A DNA stretch of 64,000 nucleotides. Origin: Candidatus Hydrogenedens sp. Lineage in GTDB: Bacteria > Hydrogenedentota > Hydrogenedentia > Hydrogenedentales > Hydrogenedentaceae. How positions within the stretch are numbered: the stretch's first letter is position 1; each line of letters starts with the position of its first letter. The translations under genes were made by a program, and so were the position numbers. The stretch spans positions 1-64,000 of the forward strand of contig JBMFRC010000013.1 in the NCBI GenBank assembly GCA_049968235.1. Reading direction: 5' to 3'. A model generated the notes under the pieces. The model did no database searches and was not told the origin of the DNA. It saw nothing but the letters and a program-made list of their open reading frames with translations. Shown in pieces: positions 15,505-64,000 of this stretch.

Positions 15505-16977
15505 CTATTTATTTAGACCGGTGATTTTCATTAAACGGACAAATAAATATTCAAAGGGAATGAGTTTAAAATAATAGGATATTATAAATAAAACGAGAAT
15601 GAACGCGAAATTGATAGCAAGCGAACTCGGGTAAAAAACATATAACAAAAGATAGCACAGAAAAAAGCACTGAGGGAGTAATACTTTTCCCCAATCAAAT
15701 AGAATACAGGTTTTCCTTACCCAGATGGTTTGCATCAGATATGAGAAAAAGAAACTCACCAGCGAAGCCCATCCTGCCCCGACCATACCTATATAAGGTA
15801 TTAATAAGAAATTCAGCCCTAAGTTAATACCTACGGTCCCTATATTCGTTATTGTAACTACATAGGGACGGTTCGTGGCGATAAGTGTTTGCCCAGAGAT
15901 ACCAGATAACACCGCAAACACAATCCCTGCTAATAATGGGACCAATATGGTGGTGATGTCCATATACTCTTTAGAAAATAAAAACAAGATAATGTATTTT
16001 TGAATAAAAGGTAAGAATAAAATACCTAAGAAACTTAATATAGCAATAACATTTTGCGATTGGATAAAAAACTTTACTGCCTCTTTTTCTTGTTTCGTAG
16101 CAAACAATTCTGAAATATGTGGGAGATAGGGCAAAAGCAGTGAATTTAACATACGCGAAGCAATATGACAGAGCCTTTTTGCCATTTCATAAACCGCAAC
16201 TTGAACAGGACTGCCCGTTAAAAATAATAGGACTACTGTATCAAAACGTTGAACCAGATAATTAAGAATCGTATTCACCCATAGCACCCAGCTAAATTTT
16301 ATTGCAGATGTAATTTGGGCTATATCCAATCGGAATGAGCGTCCTGATGGTAGAGACCACCATAATAAGATAACCGTCAAAAGATAACTTATAATATATG
16401 CAAAGGATAGTGGGACAATTTTCCCCTTTAAAACAATCAGAACAATAACTGAAAAAATAACCTGTAATACGGACGCAATCGCAACGCCTATTGCTCTTTT
16501 CCCAAAAACCTGAAAACCGGAGAGGTTTGCAAGTAGAACATCCCTTAACAAGCCTGCAATAAATAGGAATGGCACTATCCAGAAATAAGCGAGCATAAGA
16601 GATGTGTGGGAAAAACCCTCCTGAAAGGAAGTAATTCCGTAGAATATTCCCCAGAGAATAAGTGTAATCAAGGATATTACGATGGAATTTAATAAGGAAA
16701 AAGTAAACAATGAAGACGATAAATTCCCCTTTAATTCATCGGAGGCTCCACCAATAAGTTTCGGGATAGATACCTGCAAACCATAACCGAAAAATAAGAC
16801 AAATCCGTCGGACCAGACCAGTAGTAACGAAAAAACCGCTACCTCTTCTTTGTTCAGGGAAATTGCAAACAGTTTGCCAACAATTAACAGGGCTATGAGA
16901 TTAATAACTGTACTTAACCATGACCAGAATGCCCCCTCTAATACACCTGATTTCTTTGTCTGTAAAGTATTGTTCAT
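15505..16977 (-). CDS. Polysaccharide biosynthesis flippase (Wzx / MOP superfamily)
   Basis: 490 aa with about 12-14 TM helices and the typical Wzx-like organisation. It lies adjacent to a PCP gene. Confidence 0.65.
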   Translation of the reverse strand: MNNTLQTKKSGVLEGAFWSWLSTVINLIALLIVGKLFAISLNKEEVAVFSLLLVWSDGFVLFFGYGLQVSIPKLIGGASDELKGNLSSSLFTFSLLNSIVISLITLILWGIFYGITSFQEGFSHTSLMLAYFWIVPFLFIAGLLRDVLLANLSGFQVFGKRAIGVAIASVLQVIFSVIVLIVLKGKIVPLSFAYIISYLLTVILLWWSLPSGRSFRLDIAQITSAIKFSWVLWVNTILNYLVQRFDTVVLLFLTGSPVQVAVYEMAKRLCHIASRMLNSLLLPYLPHISELFATKQEKEAVKFFIQSQNVIAILSFLGILFLPFIQKYIILFLFSKEYMDITTILVPLLAGIVFAVLSGISGQTLIATNRPYVVTITNIGTVGINLGLNFLLIPYIGMVGAGWASLVSFFFSYLMQTIWVRKTCILFDWGKVLLPQCFFLCYLLLYVFYPSSLAINFAFILVLFIISYYFKLIPFEYLFVRLMKITGLNK

Positions 16978-59876: not shown

Positions 59877-60106
59877 TATTTCATTGCCCTTATAATTTTT
59901 TATTCAACGGATGAAATATTATAAAAGGATATTTCTGAAAACACTAATTCTTCTTTTAAAAGTTTTTGCATACTCTAACCTTAATATAAAATAGGAACCC
60001 ATAACCTCCGCTTTTACTACTTAAAGAACAAATAAATCTTATAAACATTCGCACATAATGTTTTTGGGGACATAAAAAATCTACTATTGTGGGGATTGTA
60101 AAAAAA

Positions 60107-60183
60107 TGGTGGGCGGTGCAGGACTCGAACCTGCGACCCCCTGCGTGTAAAGCAGATGCTCTAACCAGCTGAGCTAACCGCCC
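60107..60183 (-). tRNA. tRNA-Val (anticodon UAC), 77 nt with encoded CCA
   Basis: I folded this by hand into a cloverleaf: acceptor GGGCGGT/ACCGCCC, D-arm GCTC-AGCTGGTTA-GAGC, anticodon stem TCTGC/GCAGG with loop TTTACAC, T-arm GCAGG-TTCGAGT-CCTGC, discriminator A, then CCA. Confidence 0.85.
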
Positions 60184-60301
60184 CTATTTACCCTAATAGG
60201 GACTAATATATTATCAAAATAAAAATACTGTTATCAATTTTCATAATTGTATTATTTCATTTTCCAGATTGAAAATAGCATATAGATAGAAGTTATCAAT
60301 G

Positions 60302-61693
60302 TTACTCAGAAGGAGAAATCATTTTGTAGGGGTTAACAATCTGGTCAAATTCTTGTTCCGTGATTAAGCCTGTTTTTAGTGCTTCTTCTTTGAGGGTAGT
60401 ACCGTTTTTATGTGCATTACGGGCGATTTGAGCGGAAACTTCATAGCCAAGTTTTCTATTTAGTGCAGTTACTAACATTAATGAATTTTGAAGGTAGTAT
60501 GCTAATTTTTTGCGGTTAGGCTGGAGACCGTTCAAGCAATTTTGAGTAAAGGACTGGCATGCATCGGATAGAAGATGTATAGATTGAAGGATATTATAGA
60601 TAATCACAGGTTTGTAAACATTGAGTTCAAATTGTCCTGATGAACCAGCAATGTTAATAGCTACATCATTTCCTATTACTTGAGCACATACCATTGTCAT
60701 CATTTCGCATTGAGTTGGATTAACTTTACCGGGCATAATGGAGGAGCCGGGTTCGTTCTCTGGGAGGAACAATTCTGCAAGGCCACAACGAGGACCGCTT
60801 CCCATCAGTCGAATATCATTGGCAATTTTCATGCAGGAACAAGCGATTGTTTTTAATATACCGGAAAGCATAACCAGGGCATCATGTCCTGCTAATGCTT
60901 CAAATTTATTTTCTGCGGGTCGGAAAGGTTGTTGGGTTAATTCTGCAATATAAGCAACTGCTTTTTCTGCGAAACCTACGGGGGCATTTAATCCTGTCCC
61001 GACAGCAGTTCCACCCAATGCCAATTCATACAGGTCTTTTAAGGATAATTGTATACGATTCATATCTTGTTCGATTTGTCGTGCATAACCGGAGAATTCC
61101 TGTCCTAAGGTAATTGGTGTTGCATCCATCATGTGTGTTCTGCCTGTTTTCACTAAATCTTTGTATTCTTCGGATTTGCGGGCAAGTGATTTATAAAATT
61201 CGTCCAGTGCAGGAAGCAAACGGTTACTCAATTCCAGAACTGTTGCTACATGCATTGCTGTTGGGAACACATCATTTGAGGATTGAGACATATTTACATG
61301 GTCATTGGGATGAATCGGTTTTTTTGTGCTATGAGGTGAACCTAAAATTTCATTAGCACGTGTTGATATAACTTCATTCACATTCATATTTGTTTGCGTT
61401 CCACTTCCTGTCTGCCAGACATGCAGAGGAAACTGGTCGTCCCATTTTCCTGTGAGGATTTCATCAACCACAGTAGTGATAATTTCGCAATATTCCGATT
61501 TAAGTAAACCGAGGTCATGATTCGCCTTTGCACAGGCTTTCTTTATAAGTGCCAATGCATATACAACCTCCATAGGCATTTTTTCTTTGCCCACAGAAAA
61601 AAATTGAAGTGAACGAACCGTCTGACTACCGTAGTAGGCATCAAGAGGCACTTGAACTTCACCCAATGCATCTTTCTCTATACGAAATTCCAT
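60302..61693 (-). CDS. fumC: Class II fumarate hydratase
   Basis: The signature GSSIMPGKVNPTQCE is present. QTGSGTQTNMNVNEV favours FumC over aspartase. Confidence 0.8.
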   Translation of the reverse strand: MEFRIEKDALGEVQVPLDAYYGSQTVRSLQFFSVGKEKMPMEVVYALALIKKACAKANHDLGLLKSEYCEIITTVVDEILTGKWDDQFPLHVWQTGSGTQTNMNVNEVISTRANEILGSPHSTKKPIHPNDHVNMSQSSNDVFPTAMHVATVLELSNRLLPALDEFYKSLARKSEEYKDLVKTGRTHMMDATPITLGQEFSGYARQIEQDMNRIQLSLKDLYELALGGTAVGTGLNAPVGFAEKAVAYIAELTQQPFRPAENKFEALAGHDALVMLSGILKTIACSCMKIANDIRLMGSGPRCGLAELFLPENEPGSSIMPGKVNPTQCEMMTMVCAQVIGNDVAINIAGSSGQFELNVYKPVIIYNILQSIHLLSDACQSFTQNCLNGLQPNRKKLAYYLQNSLMLVTALNRKLGYEVSAQIARNAHKNGTTLKEEALKTGLITEQEFDQIVNPYKMISPSE

Positions 61694-61838
61694 CCTTTTA
61701 TCCCTTTATTTGATTGAATAATTTATACTTCTTATCTATTTTACTTCAATGCTGTATGACGAATAAATCTTTTTGTAGAACTTATAGAGGAGGTGTCTAT
61801 GCTTTTTTGTAAAAGAGAAGTTTTAATTGAATGTGTAT

Positions 61839-61879
61839 AAATAAAGTAAAGGCACGGGGAAGTTTCGTTTCCCTGTGCC
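61839..61879 (-). terminator. Rho-independent terminator after the Hsp20 cluster
   Basis: Hairpin ggcacgggga-agtttcgttt-ccctgtgcc (9/10 bp stem). On the minus strand it is followed by TTTACTTTATTT. Confidence 0.5.
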
Positions 61880-61929
61880 CTTGTCCATGTTGTAATGCGG
61901 TGTAGTATTAATACGAACCTGTGTAGATA

Positions 61930-62421
61930 TTATCCGACTTTAATCTGGATACGGTGTGCTTTTGCAGATTCGCTCTTGGGCAGACGAATCTGTAAGACAC
62001 CGTTTTTGTAATTTGCCTCGGCTTTCTCAGCGATAATCTCACAAGGCAAAGGAATAACGCGGGAGAAAGAACCATATTGACATTCCGCATAATAGTATGA
62101 ACGGTCTTTCTTTTCCTGCTGGAATTTCTTTTCACCCCGCAGGATAAGTCTCTGCCCTTGAAGCTCAACCTTAAAATCGTTTTCAGATAAGCCGGGCATT
62201 TCTGCGTTAATAATAACTTCGTCATTGTTTTCTTCGACATCCACCGCAGGGAATGTAGTGGTATTAAACCAGTCGAAGAAAACAGGTTCATGCGTGAGCC
62301 AATTCCCCGAGTCCTTACGGGTTGTTAAGAAACGGTCAAACCAATTGTTGAGGGTTTGACGCAAATCATTTATCTTTTCTTTTATCTGGATAGGGACTAA
62401 TGTGTTACGCATAAACCTCAC
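61930..62421 (-). CDS. Hsp20 / alpha-crystallin family small heat-shock protein
   Basis: Alpha-crystallin domain motifs are VDVEENNDEVIINAEMPGLSENDFKVEL ... GVLQIRLPK. RBS aaggaggtg. Confidence 0.85.
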   Translation of the reverse strand: MRFMRNTLVPIQIKEKINDLRQTLNNWFDRFLTTRKDSGNWLTHEPVFFDWFNTTTFPAVDVEENNDEVIINAEMPGLSENDFKVELQGQRLILRGEKKFQQEKKDRSYYYAECQYGSFSRVIPLPCEIIAEKAEANYKNGVLQIRLPKSESAKAHRIQIKVG

Positions 62422-62440
62422 CTCCTTTTATTGTTCAAGT

Positions 62441-62469
62441 GGGCAGATTCGTTGTATGCGAACCTGCCC
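62441..62469 (-). promoter_or_regulatory. Stable hairpin in the 5' leader between Hsp20 genes 2 and 1
   Basis: gggcagattcg-ttgtatg-cgaacctgccc (10/11 bp stem). On the minus strand it is immediately followed by the RBS aaggaggtg and the ATG. There is no T-run after it on the minus strand, so I do not read it as a simple terminator. Confidence 0.35.
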
Positions 62470-62477
62470 TTTTATTA

Positions 62478-62867
62478 TTAACTAACGGTAATCGGTATTT
62501 GTTTGGGTTTGGCTTCTTCTTTCTTGGGTAAGTGGATAATTAATACACCATTTTTCATTTCAGCCTTGATTTTCTCCTGGTCCGTCTTATCGCTTAACTG
62601 GAACTGACGGAAGTAAGGATATAGGTCAAATTCCTGATAAGTCAGGTCGACATTCAAATTACTTTTTGCACCTGCTTTAATAGTCAGAATGTCGTTCTCC
62701 ACCTGAATCTGGACATCCTCTTTCTGGACACCGGGCAAATCTGCGATGACAGTTAAGCCCTCGGCGGTTTCAAAGATGTCCACAGGTGGTCGGAGTGTCT
62801 TTGAACTGTCCCGTGTATCGGGAACATGTTTGGATTGTGTCTTGACGGGAATTGTTGTTTCTTTCAT
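62478..62867 (-). CDS. Hsp20 / alpha-crystallin family small heat-shock protein
   Basis: Alpha-crystallin domain motifs are VDIFETAEGLTVIADLPGVQKEDVQIQV ... GVLIIHLPK. The ATG at 62867 has an RBS aggaggtg; the track start at 62876 is GTG. Confidence 0.85.
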   Translation of the reverse strand: MKETTIPVKTQSKHVPDTRDSSKTLRPPVDIFETAEGLTVIADLPGVQKEDVQIQVENDILTIKAGAKSNLNVDLTYQEFDLYPYFRQFQLSDKTDQEKIKAEMKNGVLIIHLPKKEEAKPKQIPITVS

Positions 62868-62896
62868 AGCCAACACCTCCTTTTTGTTATGGGTTA

Positions 62897-63361
62897 TTAT
62901 TTTACACTTATTGATATTTGTTTGGGTTTTGCGGATTCGGCTTTAGGTAGAGTTAACAGAAGAATACCGTTCTTATACTCTGCTTTTACTTTGTCAGCAT
63001 CTACTTCGACAGGAAGTGATAATGTGCGGATAAATTTACCAGCACCACGCTCATTGCGATGGAATGCCTCCGGTTTTACATCCTTTATTGCAGGTTTCTC
63101 TCCTGCAATACGCACGGTATTATTCAGCACGGAGACTTCCAACGACTCAGGGTCAATACCCGGAGCCAATGCCTCCACATAAACATTATCCTTATCCTCT
63201 GCAAGATTGACAAGAGGATAAGAGCGAGTGGAGACACCCGGCAAGAACGAGAAACGGAATGACGGGATGTCCCAGACATCCTCATTGAAAATACGGAACA
63301 AATCATCCATCTCGCGTCTGAGTTGCTCTAACTCTTGAATTGGGTCCCACCATCTTCTCAT
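62897..63361 (-). CDS. Hsp20 / alpha-crystallin family small heat-shock protein
   Basis: Alpha-crystallin domain motifs are VNLAEDKDNVYVEALAPGIDPESLEVSV ... GILLLTLPK. RBS aaaggaggt with 7-nt spacing. Confidence 0.85.
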   Translation of the reverse strand: MRRWWDPIQELEQLRREMDDLFRIFNEDVWDIPSFRFSFLPGVSTRSYPLVNLAEDKDNVYVEALAPGIDPESLEVSVLNNTVRIAGEKPAIKDVKPEAFHRNERGAGKFIRTLSLPVEVDADKVKAEYKNGILLLTLPKAESAKPKQISISVK

Positions 63362-63404
63362 AGGTCATACCTCCTTTGGTTAAGGTTTACTTTTTTTCTA
63401 TGTT

Positions 63405-63424
63405 ATTCAATTTTCATATTGAAT
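63405..63424. promoter_or_regulatory. Perfect 7-6-7 inverted repeat ATTCAAT-TTTCAT-ATTGAAT in the Hsp20 operon leader
   Basis: Read directly from the sequence, about 45 bp upstream of the first Hsp20 start codon. It is a candidate repressor operator. Confidence 0.4.
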
Positions 63425-63711
63425 TTAGCAAACAGCATGCCAGGTCGTAATGAACAAAAATCAATTGAAAATATGAAGGTTTATGCAGACCGTTCCTAAG
63501 ACAAAAACGCTCCTGTTTCATTTCTTTGCTGAAAAATGAAACATTCGTTTCACTATGCTACGAAAAACCATGCCCAACCCTGGCTGATTTGTCCGACCTG
63601 TATGACCCTAAACTTAACTACAAGATTTTAAATACAATGCAAAATATGTTATCATATGTATAATCCCTCTAAATTTATCCCATTCAGCAATATAAATCAG
63701 GTGTTTTTTTT

Positions 63712-64000
63712 ATGTGGTATCGTTCTATTCCAATTATTTTGTTGATATTATCCAATCTGTTCATGACTTACGCATGGTATGGACACTTAAAAGATTTAAA
63801 AAACAAACCTTTGTTTATGGCAATTGTATTCAGTTGGTGTGTGGCATTTTTTGAGTATTGTCTGCAAGTTCCTGCCAACCGTATCGGATTTCAGTTCCTA
63901 AATTTAAGTCAGTTAAAAGTTCTTCAAGAAGTAATTACAATGATTGTGTTTGCTATATTTTCTGTCGTATATATGAAAGAGCAAATCCGCATGGATTTTG
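63712..64000 (+). CDS. DMT-superfamily small membrane protein (DUF486-like), 5' partial; it continues beyond the window
   Basis: I translated this by hand: MWYRSIPIILLILSNLFMTYAWYGHLKDLKNKPLFMAIVFSWCVAFFEYCLQVPANRIGF ... It has hydrophobic helices and no stop before the window end. Confidence 0.5.
   Translation, partial: MWYRSIPIILLILSNLFMTYAWYGHLKDLKNKPLFMAIVFSWCVAFFEYCLQVPANRIGFQFLNLSQLKVLQEVITMIVFAIFSVVYMKEQIRMDF

What the first reader, a model, noticed from the sequence alone, without database searches (positions are those of the whole stretch)
61839..63560. Three tandem Hsp20 paralogs with their own strong RBSs, a palindromic leader operator, a sigma-32-like promoter candidate and inter-cistronic hairpins
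Three alpha-crystallin genes of 163, about 129 and 154 aa sit head-to-tail on the minus strand, each with an aaggagg-type RBS. The leader carries the perfect inverted repeat ATTCAAT-N6-ATTGAAT (63405-63424) and, further upstream, overlapping GTTTCA / TGAAAC arms. One is the 9-bp stem gtttcattt / aaatgaaac at 63515-63542; the other is the palindrome tgaaac-attc-gtttca at 63537-63552. On the minus strand a CTTAGGAA-N15-CCTTCATAT arrangement at about 63500-63468 resembles a sigma-32 -35/-10 pair. That resemblance is weak. Between genes 2 and 1 a 10/11-bp hairpin (62441-62469) sits immediately 5' of the RBS, positioned like an RNA thermometer or processing site. The cluster ends in a clean terminator (61839-61879). 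None of the inverted repeats matches CIRCE, HAIR or CtsR consensus, which suggests a different heat-shock regulator.
Basis: partly seen in the sequence, partly recalled or inferred. Interest (0 to 1): 0.5.

Follow-up and report, generated by a model that had tools for sequence, protein, structure and literature searches.

The report
Sigma-54 enhancer-driven small heat-shock operon
Three small heat-shock protein genes in a Hydrogenedentota bacterium are very probably switched on from a sigma-54 promoter with an upstream enhancer; this design is conserved across the phylum, also serves dnaK, dnaJ and probably clpB elsewhere, and extends a known kind of chaperone-gene control to a new phylum.

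Summary
It is the best sigma-54 site in the whole window. It is conserved upstream of the orthologous operon in 60 of 80 related loci, and essentially all loci labelled Hydrogenedentota have it. The upstream GTTTCA/TGAAAC palindromes are half-sites of a conserved enhancer made of tandem 17-bp dyads, TGTTTCA-N3-TGAAACA, centred at -119 and -138. In other loci the same enhancer lies between divergent sigma-54 promoters for hsp20 and dnaK or dnaJ. The sigma-32-like motif matches no better than chance and is not conserved. The leader palindrome spans the inferred start site, and only its downstream arm is conserved. An RNA thermometer is not supported. The gene 2-3 hairpin is conserved in position but does not cover the RBS. 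The activator protein was not found. Sigma-54 control of chaperone genes is already known (E. coli ibpB) or predicted (Planctomycetota, Bacteroidota), so this is a new member of a known kind.

The parts
63545..63563 (-). Distal enhancer dyad (site A): TCGTAGCATAGTGAAACGA on the minus strand, centre about -138 from the inferred start site.
Evidence: Scores 14.0 bits against a dyad PWM derived from orthologous loci.
63526..63544 (-). Proximal enhancer dyad (site B): ATGTTTCATTTTTCAGCAA, centre about -119, 19 bp from site A.
   Evidence: Scores 16.9 bits, the best hit to this PWM in the 64-kb window. Orthologous loci usually carry two dyads 19-23 bp apart.
63514..63523 (-). Extra TGAAACA half-site (AAATGAAACA).
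   Evidence: Inverted repeat I3. L003 has an intact TGAAAC at the same place, while L004 and L005 have only degenerate versions (TGGGAC, TGCAAC).
63458..63513 (-). A+T-rich spacer between enhancer and promoter. It holds a weak IHF-like site (TTTCAATTGATTT, 63470-63458, 2 mismatches to WATCAANNNNTTR).
   Evidence: Across loci, an IHF consensus match with at most 1 mismatch occurs in 17 of 47 spacers, against 6% of shuffles. The sigma-32-like motif is not conserved.
63427..63442 (-). Sigma-54 promoter TGGCATGCTGTTTGCT (GG at -25/-24, GC at -13/-12). The inferred start site is near 63416.
   Evidence: One of two exact TGGCA-N6-TTGCW matches in the window, and the only intergenic one. It is the top sigma-54 PWM hit in the window, 20.3 bits against 13.6 for the next. 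TGGCA and TTGC are invariant among close relatives while the spacer varies.
63405..63424 (-). ATTCAAT-N6-ATTGAAT palindrome spanning about -8 to +12. Only the downstream part (TGAAAATTGAAT, about +2 to +13) is conserved.
   Evidence: As RNA the stem would be only -4.1 kcal/mol, and its 5' arm lies upstream of the inferred start site.
63362..63416 (-). Inferred 55-nt 5' UTR. ACCUU (63386-63382) can pair with the SD (AAGGAGG, 63376-63370).
   Evidence: The fold is not stronger than shuffles, z = -0.39. The SD is 27% unpaired against 56% in shuffles here and in 3 close relatives, but SD masking is not a family-wide feature.
62897..63361 (-). sHSP gene 1 (154 aa).
   Evidence: PF00011, E 2.2e-21. 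Orthologs at 53-96% identity were found in 80 loci.
62478..62867 (-). sHSP gene 2 (129 aa from the ATG).
   Evidence: PF00011, E 1.3e-21. It lies directly downstream of gene 1 in 79 of the 80 related loci.
62441..62469 (-). Hairpin between genes 2 and 3: GGGCAGGTTCG-N7-CGAATCTGCCC.
   Evidence: The segment folds at -21.5 kcal/mol, z = -3.26. In about two-thirds of the g1-g2-g3 loci a strong stem-loop of different sequence follows the gene 2 stop. It has no U tail, and the SD is not in the stem.
61930..62412 (-). sHSP gene 3 (160 aa from the ATG).
   Evidence: PF00011, E 6.1e-21. A gene 3 ortholog was detected as the third gene in roughly half of the related loci; several other contigs end before that position.
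61839..61882 (-). Operon-terminal hairpin followed by a U-rich tail.
   Evidence: 13-bp stem with one internal mismatch, centroid -18.8 kcal/mol, z = -3.5. The simple terminator scanner did not call it.

Best explanation
The three sHSP genes form one operon transcribed from an enhancer-dependent sigma-54 promoter (63442-63427), with an inferred start near 63416.

**Proposed mechanism**
1. RNA polymerase carrying sigma-54 sits on the -24/-12 element in a closed complex.
2. A bacterial enhancer-binding protein (bEBP), encoded elsewhere in the genome, binds as dimers or a higher oligomer to the tandem TGTTTCA-N3-TGAAACA dyads centred at -119 and -138.
3. The A+T-rich, weakly IHF-like spacer lets the DNA loop so the bEBP reaches the polymerase.
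4. ATP hydrolysis by the bEBP opens the promoter.

In other members of the phylum the same enhancer-plus-promoter module drives dnaK and dnaJ, and probably clpB. The module therefore most likely defines a sigma-54-dependent protein-quality-control (heat-shock) regulon.

The hairpin after gene 2 most likely protects or defines a 3' end, so that genes 1 and 2 are expressed more than gene 3. A terminal hairpin ends the operon.

**Shown:** the motifs, their positions and their conservation. **Inferred:** the start site, activator binding, the inducing signal and the role of the hairpin.
For: **Promoter**
- The perfect -24/-12 match is the only intergenic one in the window.
- It scores 20.3 bits with a PWM built from other loci; the next best site in the window scores 13.6.
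- The 99th percentile of random 420-nt stretches is 9.5 bits, and 60 of the 80 related loci score above 11.
- TGGCA and TTGC are fixed while the 6-nt spacer varies freely. Information content is confined to those two blocks.
- Orthologous operons outside the phylum (NC10, Binatia and others) lack it. At least three of them (L048, L050, L062) show sigma-70-like TTGAC-type promoters instead.
- No convincing sigma-70-type promoter lies upstream of gene 1.

**Enhancer**
- GTTTCA/TGAAAC is the most enriched hexamer at -230 to -30: 54 seen against 7.2 expected, present in 38 of 51 loci.
- PWM refinement gives cTGTTTCA-N3-TGAAACAg, usually as two copies 19-23 bp apart.
- 47 of the 81 sequences scored (80 loci plus the window) have both the promoter and the dyad motif.
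- Two of the three best dyad hits in the window are adjacent at 63526-63563.

**Regulon**
- In L038 and L082 the dyads lie between divergent sigma-54 promoters for hsp20 and dnaK. In L036 the partner gene is dnaJ.
- A metagenome scan for dyad plus promoter found further HSP20, ClpB and DnaK genes downstream.

**Spacer**
- IHF-like sites are enriched between enhancer and promoter.

**Precedent**
- E. coli ibpB has a sigma-54 promoter (PMC2831329).
- Sigma-54 promoters are predicted to be enriched at GroEL, IbpA, GroES, GrpE, DnaJ and DnaK genes in Planctomycetota and Bacteroidota (PMC12316311).
Against: - No transcript data exist, so the start site and heat induction are inferred.
- No bEBP gene lies in the 64-kb window or beside the operon in any Hydrogenedentota locus. 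The presence of rpoN in this genome was not checked.
- The dyad core is not specific to chaperone genes. In metagenomes it also precedes prpB-like, Nitro_FeMo-Co and fumarase genes that have their own adjacent bEBPs.
- The window's two dyads are each imperfect: one good half-site plus one degenerate half-site.
- The window's own IHF-like site has 2 mismatches.
Confidence: 0.8

Rival explanations
1. A sigma-32-like (or sigma-70) promoter at about 63500-63468 drives the operon, and the palindromes are operators for a novel repressor.
For: - CTTAGGAA-N15-CCTTCATAT loosely resembles the sigma-32 consensus.
- Palindromes are enriched in the intergenic region.
Against: - The best sigma-32 match has 5 mismatches in 14 positions, the same as shuffled sequence. 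Its position is not conserved in the closest relatives.
- No sigma-70-type promoter above chance lies upstream of gene 1.
- The palindromes lie 75-125 bp upstream of a perfectly conserved -24/-12 element. That is enhancer geometry, not operator geometry.
Confidence: 0.05
2. Control is mainly post-transcriptional. An RNA thermometer in the leader and/or the hairpin before gene 3 melts at high temperature to allow translation.
For: - In the window and three close relatives (L003-L005), a 5-bp ACCUU:GAGGU pairing lowers SD accessibility to 0.06-0.27, against 0.49-0.62 in shuffles.
- The hairpin between genes 2 and 3 is strong and conserved in position.
Against: - No Rfam thermometer family matches.
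- The 5' UTR fold has z = -0.39.
- Across 57 loci the SD is no more masked than in shuffles, 0.59 against 0.54. Predicted accessibility hardly changes from 25 to 45 C in the window, 0.26 to 0.30.
- The intercistronic hairpin ends 16 nt before the SD and leaves it free.
Confidence: 0.1
3. The conserved -24/-12 element binds sigma-54 holoenzyme without productive activation. It would act as a roadblock or an orphan site, and the GTTTCA dyads would bind an unrelated factor.
For: - No cognate bEBP was identified.
- Non-productive sigma-54 binding sites are widespread in E. coli (title of PMC4591121, seen).
Against: - The element lies at a fixed, sensible distance upstream of the first gene: 68-148 nt in all but 2 of the 60 loci with a sigma-54-type promoter (the 2 are at 245 and 363 nt).
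- It always faces the operon.
- It is always accompanied 90-200 bp upstream by dyads, and duplicated divergently for dnaK and dnaJ.
- No alternative promoter is evident.
Confidence: 0.05

Closest known systems
E. coli ibpB sigma-54 promoter (Kuczynska-Wisnik et al. 2001, cited and used as a ChIP positive control in PMC2831329)
   Same: A small heat-shock protein gene preceded by a -24/-12 promoter that sigma-54 holoenzyme binds.
   Different: - In E. coli it is a secondary, internal promoter beside the main sigma-32 promoter of ibpAB. Its sequence is less canonical (TGGTAA-N5-TTGCT).
- Here it is the only recognisable promoter of the whole operon. It has a defined tandem-dyad enhancer and is conserved across a phylum.
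Predicted sigma-54 promoters at chaperone genes in Planctomycetota and Bacteroidota (PMC12316311, PLoS One 2025)
   Same: Sigma-54 promoters upstream of IbpA-type sHSP, DnaK, DnaJ, GrpE, GroES/EL and Clp/Lon-type genes, in phyla outside the Proteobacteria.
   Different: - A text search of that paper for the phylum name found no mention of Hydrogenedentota.
- The passages I read on chaperone genes do not describe an enhancer motif or an activator.
- Here the enhancer motif and its shared use by divergent hsp20 and dnaK/dnaJ promoters are defined.
Myxococcus xanthus HsfA/HsfB control of lonD (recalled from memory, Ueki & Inouye 2002; not checked here)
   Same: A sigma-54 enhancer-binding protein activating a heat-shock gene.
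   Different: - HsfA is a response regulator encoded with its kinase.
- No such pair is linked to the operon here, and the activator's domain structure is unknown.
PspF/PspA phage-shock system (established knowledge)
   Same: A stress regulon run by sigma-54, upstream dyad sites and IHF-assisted looping. It is a possible model for an activator held in check by a product of its own regulon.
   Different: - No PspF- or PspA-like gene is linked here.
- Chaperone titration of the activator is pure conjecture for this operon.
Two-protein sHSP systems such as IbpA/IbpB (established knowledge)
   Same: Tandem, divergent sHSP genes co-transcribed in one operon.
   Different: - There are three genes here.
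- The gene 1-gene 2 pair is conserved across several phyla, and gene 3 is set apart by a conserved hairpin.

Membership tests
Sigma-54 (-24/-12) enhancer-dependent promoter | GG and GC doublets exactly 10 nt apart within the TGGCAC-N5-TTGCW consensus, upstream of and facing a gene. | tested here: met
   TGGCATGCTGTTTGCT lies at 63442-63427, 81 nt upstream of the gene 1 ATG. It is the top PWM hit in the window.
Sigma-54 (-24/-12) enhancer-dependent promoter | Conservation of the two blocks, but not of the spacer, in orthologous loci. | tested here: met
   60 of the 80 related loci score above 11 bits, against a background 99th percentile of 9.5. Information content is restricted to TTGGCA and TTGCT.
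Sigma-54 (-24/-12) enhancer-dependent promoter | Upstream activator sequences (dyad sites) roughly 80-200 bp upstream. | tested here: met
   Tandem TGTTTCA-N3-TGAAACA dyads are centred at -119 and -138. They are conserved and enriched across loci.
Sigma-54 (-24/-12) enhancer-dependent promoter | A cognate enhancer-binding protein (AAA+ Sigma54_activat domain) identified. | tested here: inconclusive
   None is in the window or beside the operon in any Hydrogenedentota locus, by motif regex and by an HMM built from 11 bEBPs. It must be unlinked. Following up an autoregulated short bEBP (L097) gave no link.
Sigma-54 (-24/-12) enhancer-dependent promoter | An rpoN gene present in the genome. | not tested
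   Only a 64-kb window and loci of up to 12 kb were available.
Sigma-54 (-24/-12) enhancer-dependent promoter | A transcription start about 12 nt downstream of the GC that depends on sigma-54 and ATP hydrolysis. | not testable with these tools
   Needs 5'-end mapping and genetics or in vitro transcription.
Hsp20/alpha-crystallin small heat-shock proteins | An alpha-crystallin domain (PF00011) above the gathering score. | tested here: met
   All three proteins score 75-77 bits against a cut-off of 20.8.
Sigma-32 (RpoH) heat-shock promoter | CTTGAAA-N13-17-CCCCATNT above chance and conserved in orthologs. | tested here: not met
   The best match has 5 mismatches in 14 positions, equal to shuffles. 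Its position is not conserved.
RNA thermometer (ROSE, fourU, Hsp17-type) | A match to a known family, or a conserved structure that masks the SD or AUG. | tested here: not met
   No Rfam hit even at E up to 10. The UTR fold has z = -0.39. SD masking is not conserved across 57 loci. The intercistronic hairpin leaves the SD free.
CIRCE/HrcA, HAIR/HspR and CtsR operators | The consensus operator sequence near the promoter. | tested here: not met
   With up to 3 mismatches there are 0 CIRCE matches, and the HAIR and CtsR matches are at chance level, with none in the promoter region.
Intrinsic (Rho-independent) terminator, for the gene 2-3 hairpin | A G+C-rich stem directly followed by a U run. | tested here: not met
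   The stem is followed by ACUUGAACAAUAAAAGG. The relatives' hairpins also lack U tails.

The most novel reading that the evidence does not exclude
Hydrogenedentota may run their whole cytoplasmic heat-shock response (sHSPs, DnaK/DnaJ, ClpB) through sigma-54 and one dedicated, still unidentified enhancer-binding protein that recognises TGTTTCA-N3-TGAAACA.

That activator might sense unfolded protein directly. One possibility is that the chaperones it induces hold it inactive, as PspA does for PspF and DnaK does for sigma-32. This would be a third general logic for bacterial heat-shock control, beside RpoH-type sigma factors and HrcA/HspR/CtsR-type repressors.
Probability: 0.25. Interest if true: 0.65.

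Novelty: new member of a known kind. Interest (0 to 1): 0.4.

Why it matters
- The result gives a concrete, testable regulatory module (promoter, enhancer motif, target genes) for stress control in a candidate phylum known to me only from metagenome-assembled genomes.
- It adds evidence that sigma-54, rather than an RpoH-type sigma factor or a repressor, can be the main switch for chaperone genes outside the Proteobacteria.
- The defined dyad motif makes it straightforward to find the regulon and its activator once a complete genome is scanned.
- The case also carries a caution: AT-rich palindromes read as operators or RNA hairpins can be halves of tandem enhancer sites.

Tried and rejected
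1. **Sigma-32 promoter.** Scored against the consensus in 57 sequences with shuffles as control; at chance level.
2. **Sigma-70 promoter scan.** Nothing above chance upstream of gene 1.
3. **Known RNA families.** Rfam at E up to 10 gave only a tRNA in the 60000-64000 stretch.
4. **Leader thermometer.** Partition-function SD accessibility at 25, 37 and 45 C in 57 loci showed no family-wide masking.
5. **Alifold of the gene 2-3 spacer.** The MAFFT alignment of eight relatives was not structure-aware and gave a poor consensus, -2.6 kcal/mol. Per-sequence folds were used instead.
6. **Looking for the activator.**
   - GAFTGA/Walker A regex and a purpose-built HMM over the window and all loci found none linked to hsp20, except in L058. 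That locus has a sigma-70-like promoter and is unrelated.
   - An autoregulated short bEBP with the same dyads (L097) was followed through a protein search and four context look-ups. Its closest relatives use a different upstream motif and have no chaperone neighbours.
7. **OrpR as a possible match.** OrpR-type neighbours were considered for the dyad motif, but published OrpR sites are GGGCGYRTTTTGCGCCC, which is different (PMC8359166).
8. **Literature.** Searching for sigma-54 together with Hydrogenedentes returned nothing.
Full report
**1. What is in the sequence**

The minus strand of 61930-63361 carries three ORFs. Each hits Pfam HSP20 (PF00011) at E about 1e-21.
- Gene 1 is 63361-62897 (154 aa).
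- Gene 2 is 62867-62478 (129 aa from the ATG).
- Gene 3 is 62412-61930. It is 160 aa from the ATG, as in the public gene calls on L001 and L002. The 163-aa GTG start overlaps the RBS.
- Each gene has an AAGGAGG-type RBS.

The three proteins are only 30-36% identical to one another. An exact copy of gene 1 occurs in two NCBI MAGs. The best named relatives are Candidatus Hydrogenedens and Hydrogenedentota.

They are somewhat more frequent than in dinucleotide shuffles of the 349-bp, 33% G+C intergenic region. No CIRCE, HAIR or CtsR box lies in the promoter region.

**2.

A perfect sigma-54 promoter, TGGCATGCTGTTTGCT, lies 81 nt upstream of the gene 1 ATG at 63442-63427 on the minus strand. GG and GC are separated by exactly 10 nt.
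- It is one of two exact TGGCA-N6-TTGCW matches in the 64 kb. The other lies inside a polysaccharide-synthesis ORF.
- With a PWM built only from other loci it is the best site on either strand of the window, 20.3 bits against 13.6 for the next.

**3. Comparative evidence**

Eighty loci encoding orthologs of gene 1 were fetched from one-genome-per-species contigs.
- A strict sigma-54 pattern lies within 400 nt upstream in 50 of the 80. Most of the Hydrogenedentota 'misses' are one-base variants such as TGGCATGCAGATTGCG.
- By PWM, 60 of the 80 score above 11 bits, against a 99th percentile of 9.5 in random stretches of the same loci.
- TGGCA and TTGC are fixed while the six bases between them vary freely. 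Information content in the promoter-anchored alignment is confined to those two blocks.
- Orthologous operons in NC10/Methylomirabilota, Binatia and similar lineages lack the motif. At least three (L048, L050, L062) show sigma-70-like TTGAC-type promoters instead.

**4. The palindromes are an enhancer**

- In the 200 bp upstream of these promoters, the most enriched hexamer is GTTTCA/TGAAAC: 54 occurrences against 7.2 expected, in 38 of 51 loci.
- Iterative PWM refinement yields a 17-19-bp dyad, cTGTTTCA-N3-TGAAACAg. It is usually present twice, 19-23 bp centre to centre, centred about 95-225 bp (mostly 120-190) upstream of the inferred start.
- 47 of the 81 sequences scored (80 loci plus the window) have both the promoter and the dyad motif.
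- In the window the two dyads are TCGTAGCATAGTGAAACGA (centre -138) and ATGTTTCATTTTTCAGCAA (centre -119).
The 10-bp stem is the left half of the proximal dyad plus an extra TGAAACA half-site. That half-site is intact in L003 but degenerate in L004 and L005.
- Two of the three best dyad-PWM hits in the whole window are these adjacent sites.
- The A+T-rich spacer between enhancer and promoter is enriched for IHF-consensus matches across loci: at most 1 mismatch in 17 of 47, against 6% of shuffles. The window's own best match has 2 mismatches.

**5. A regulon, not just one operon**

- In L038 and L082 the same dyads lie between two divergent sigma-54 promoters, one for the hsp20 operon and one for dnaK. 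In L036 the divergent partner is dnaJ.
- A metagenome scan for 'dyad, N105-135, TGGCA-N6-TTGC' returned 51 loci. Downstream genes include seven further HSP20 genes, a ClpB and a DnaK.
- The same scan also hit prpB-like, Nitro_FeMo-Co and fumarase genes, mostly with a bEBP gene next door. The dyad core is therefore shared by several activator families and is not diagnostic by itself.

**6. What is not supported**

- *Sigma-32.* The CTTAGGAA...CCTTCATAT motif has 5 mismatches in 14 positions, the median of shuffled sequence. It falls in a non-conserved part of the spacer.
- *Sigma-70.* No sigma-70-type promoter above chance precedes gene 1.
- *Leader palindrome.* With GC at -13/-12, the start site falls at about 63416, inside the loop of ATTCAAT-N6-ATTGAAT. 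The 5' arm would not be transcribed and is not conserved even in 92-96%-identical relatives. The 3' part (TGAAAATTGAAT) is conserved.
- *Leader thermometer.*
  - The 55-nt leader is not unusually structured, z = -0.39. No Rfam thermometer matches.
  - A 5-bp ACCUU:GAGGU pairing reduces SD accessibility in the window and three close relatives. Across 57 loci, however, the SD is no more masked than in shuffles (0.59 against 0.54).
  - Predicted accessibility in the window barely changes between 25 and 45 C.

**7. The hairpin between genes 2 and 3, and the end of the operon**

- The 11-bp hairpin at 62441-62469 is strong: the segment folds at -21.5 kcal/mol with z = -3.3.
- In about two-thirds of the g1-g2-g3 loci a strong stem-loop of different sequence follows the gene 2 stop. 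The gene 1-gene 2 spacers are short and mostly unstructured.
- The hairpin ends 16 nt before the gene 3 SD and has no U tail. It is neither a thermometer nor a canonical terminator.
- The most likely role, by inference only, is a 3'-end-stabilising or processing element that sets the gene 1/gene 2 to gene 3 ratio.
- The operon ends in a 13-bp hairpin with a U-rich tail, z = -3.5. The simple scanner did not call it, probably because of the internal mismatch.

**8. The activator**

No Sigma54_activat gene is in the window or next to the operon in any Hydrogenedentota locus. A short, sensor-less bEBP preceded by the same tandem dyads (L097) was followed up. Its nearest relatives have other upstream motifs and no chaperone neighbours. 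The activator and its signal remain unknown, and the presence of rpoN was not checked.

**9. Comparison with what is known**

- E. coli ibpB has a sigma-54 promoter (PMC2831329).
- A 2025 survey predicts sigma-54 promoters enriched at IbpA, DnaK, DnaJ, GrpE and GroES/EL genes in Planctomycetota and Bacteroidota (PMC12316311).
- A literature search returned no paper that mentions both Hydrogenedentes and sigma-54.
- The finding extends a known kind of control to another phylum. It adds a defined enhancer motif and shows that divergent chaperone promoters share it.

**10. Verdict**

It is wrong on promoter type, leader operator and thermometer.
- Confidence in the sigma-54/enhancer explanation is about 0.8.
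- Novelty is 'new member of a known kind'. Interest is 0.4.

Noticed in passing
L003-L082 (gene 1-gene 2 pairs), e.g. L046, L062, L053: The gene 1-gene 2 sHSP pair, in that order, is conserved far beyond Hydrogenedentota: NC10/Methylomirabilota, Binatia, Acidiferrales and Nitrospinota MAGs. At least three of those loci (L048, L050, L062) show sigma-70-like promoters. This suggests an old two-protein sHSP module whose regulation has been rewired between phyla.
   Followed up: partly
L060, L070, L061, L064 (upstream of hsp20): These loci have strong sigma-54 promoters (22.9-26.2 bits) upstream of the orthologous hsp20 gene but lack the TGTTTCA dyads. Instead they carry other repeats: an inverted GTCAGGGCGGTA repeat in L061 and L064, and TGCGACA-type repeats in L060 and L070. 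A different activator may drive the same operon in other lineages.
   Followed up: no
window 63404-63415, and the same position in L003-L009, L017-L021, L026, L030: A conserved box, TGA(A/C)A(A/T)TTGAA(T), lies at about +2 to +13 of the inferred transcript. An 'AGTTGAA' motif recurs in the 5' UTRs of more distant loci. No explanation was found; it could be an initial-transcribed-region preference, a protein site or an RNA element.
   Followed up: partly
L097 319-470 and 727-1805 (also L139): A short enhancer-binding protein with no sensory domain (about 360-388 aa) is preceded by the same tandem TGTTTCA dyads plus TGGCATGCAATTTGCT, so it is apparently autoregulated. A small receiver-domain gene follows it. 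The source organism is unknown.
   Followed up: partly
window 16864-16879 (minus strand): A second exact TGGCA-N6-TTGCA match (13.6 bits) lies about 100 nt inside the 5' end of a Polysacc_synt ORF (15505-16977). It is probably chance or an intragenic sigma-54 site.
   Followed up: no
window 60110-60183 (minus strand): A tRNA gene (Rfam RF00005, 70.9 bits) lies just downstream of the class II fumarase gene (60302-61693).
   Followed up: no
window 63712-64000 (plus strand): The divergent neighbour is a DMT_6/DUF486 membrane protein (PF04342, E 3e-40). A weak sigma-70-like site (TTTAAA-17-TATCAT with an upstream TG) lies at 63627-63655. The same neighbour is present in L001 and L002.
   Followed up: partly
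L084, L107, L112, L117, L124; L093, L104, L108, L132: The TGTTTCA-N3-TGAAACA core plus a sigma-54 promoter also precedes Nitro_FeMo-Co-domain genes and prpB-like (PEP_mutase/ICL) genes in metagenomes. Most of these have an adjacent bEBP gene (none was detected in L104 or L132). Several bEBP families therefore appear to recognise GTTTCA-type half-sites.
   Followed up: partly
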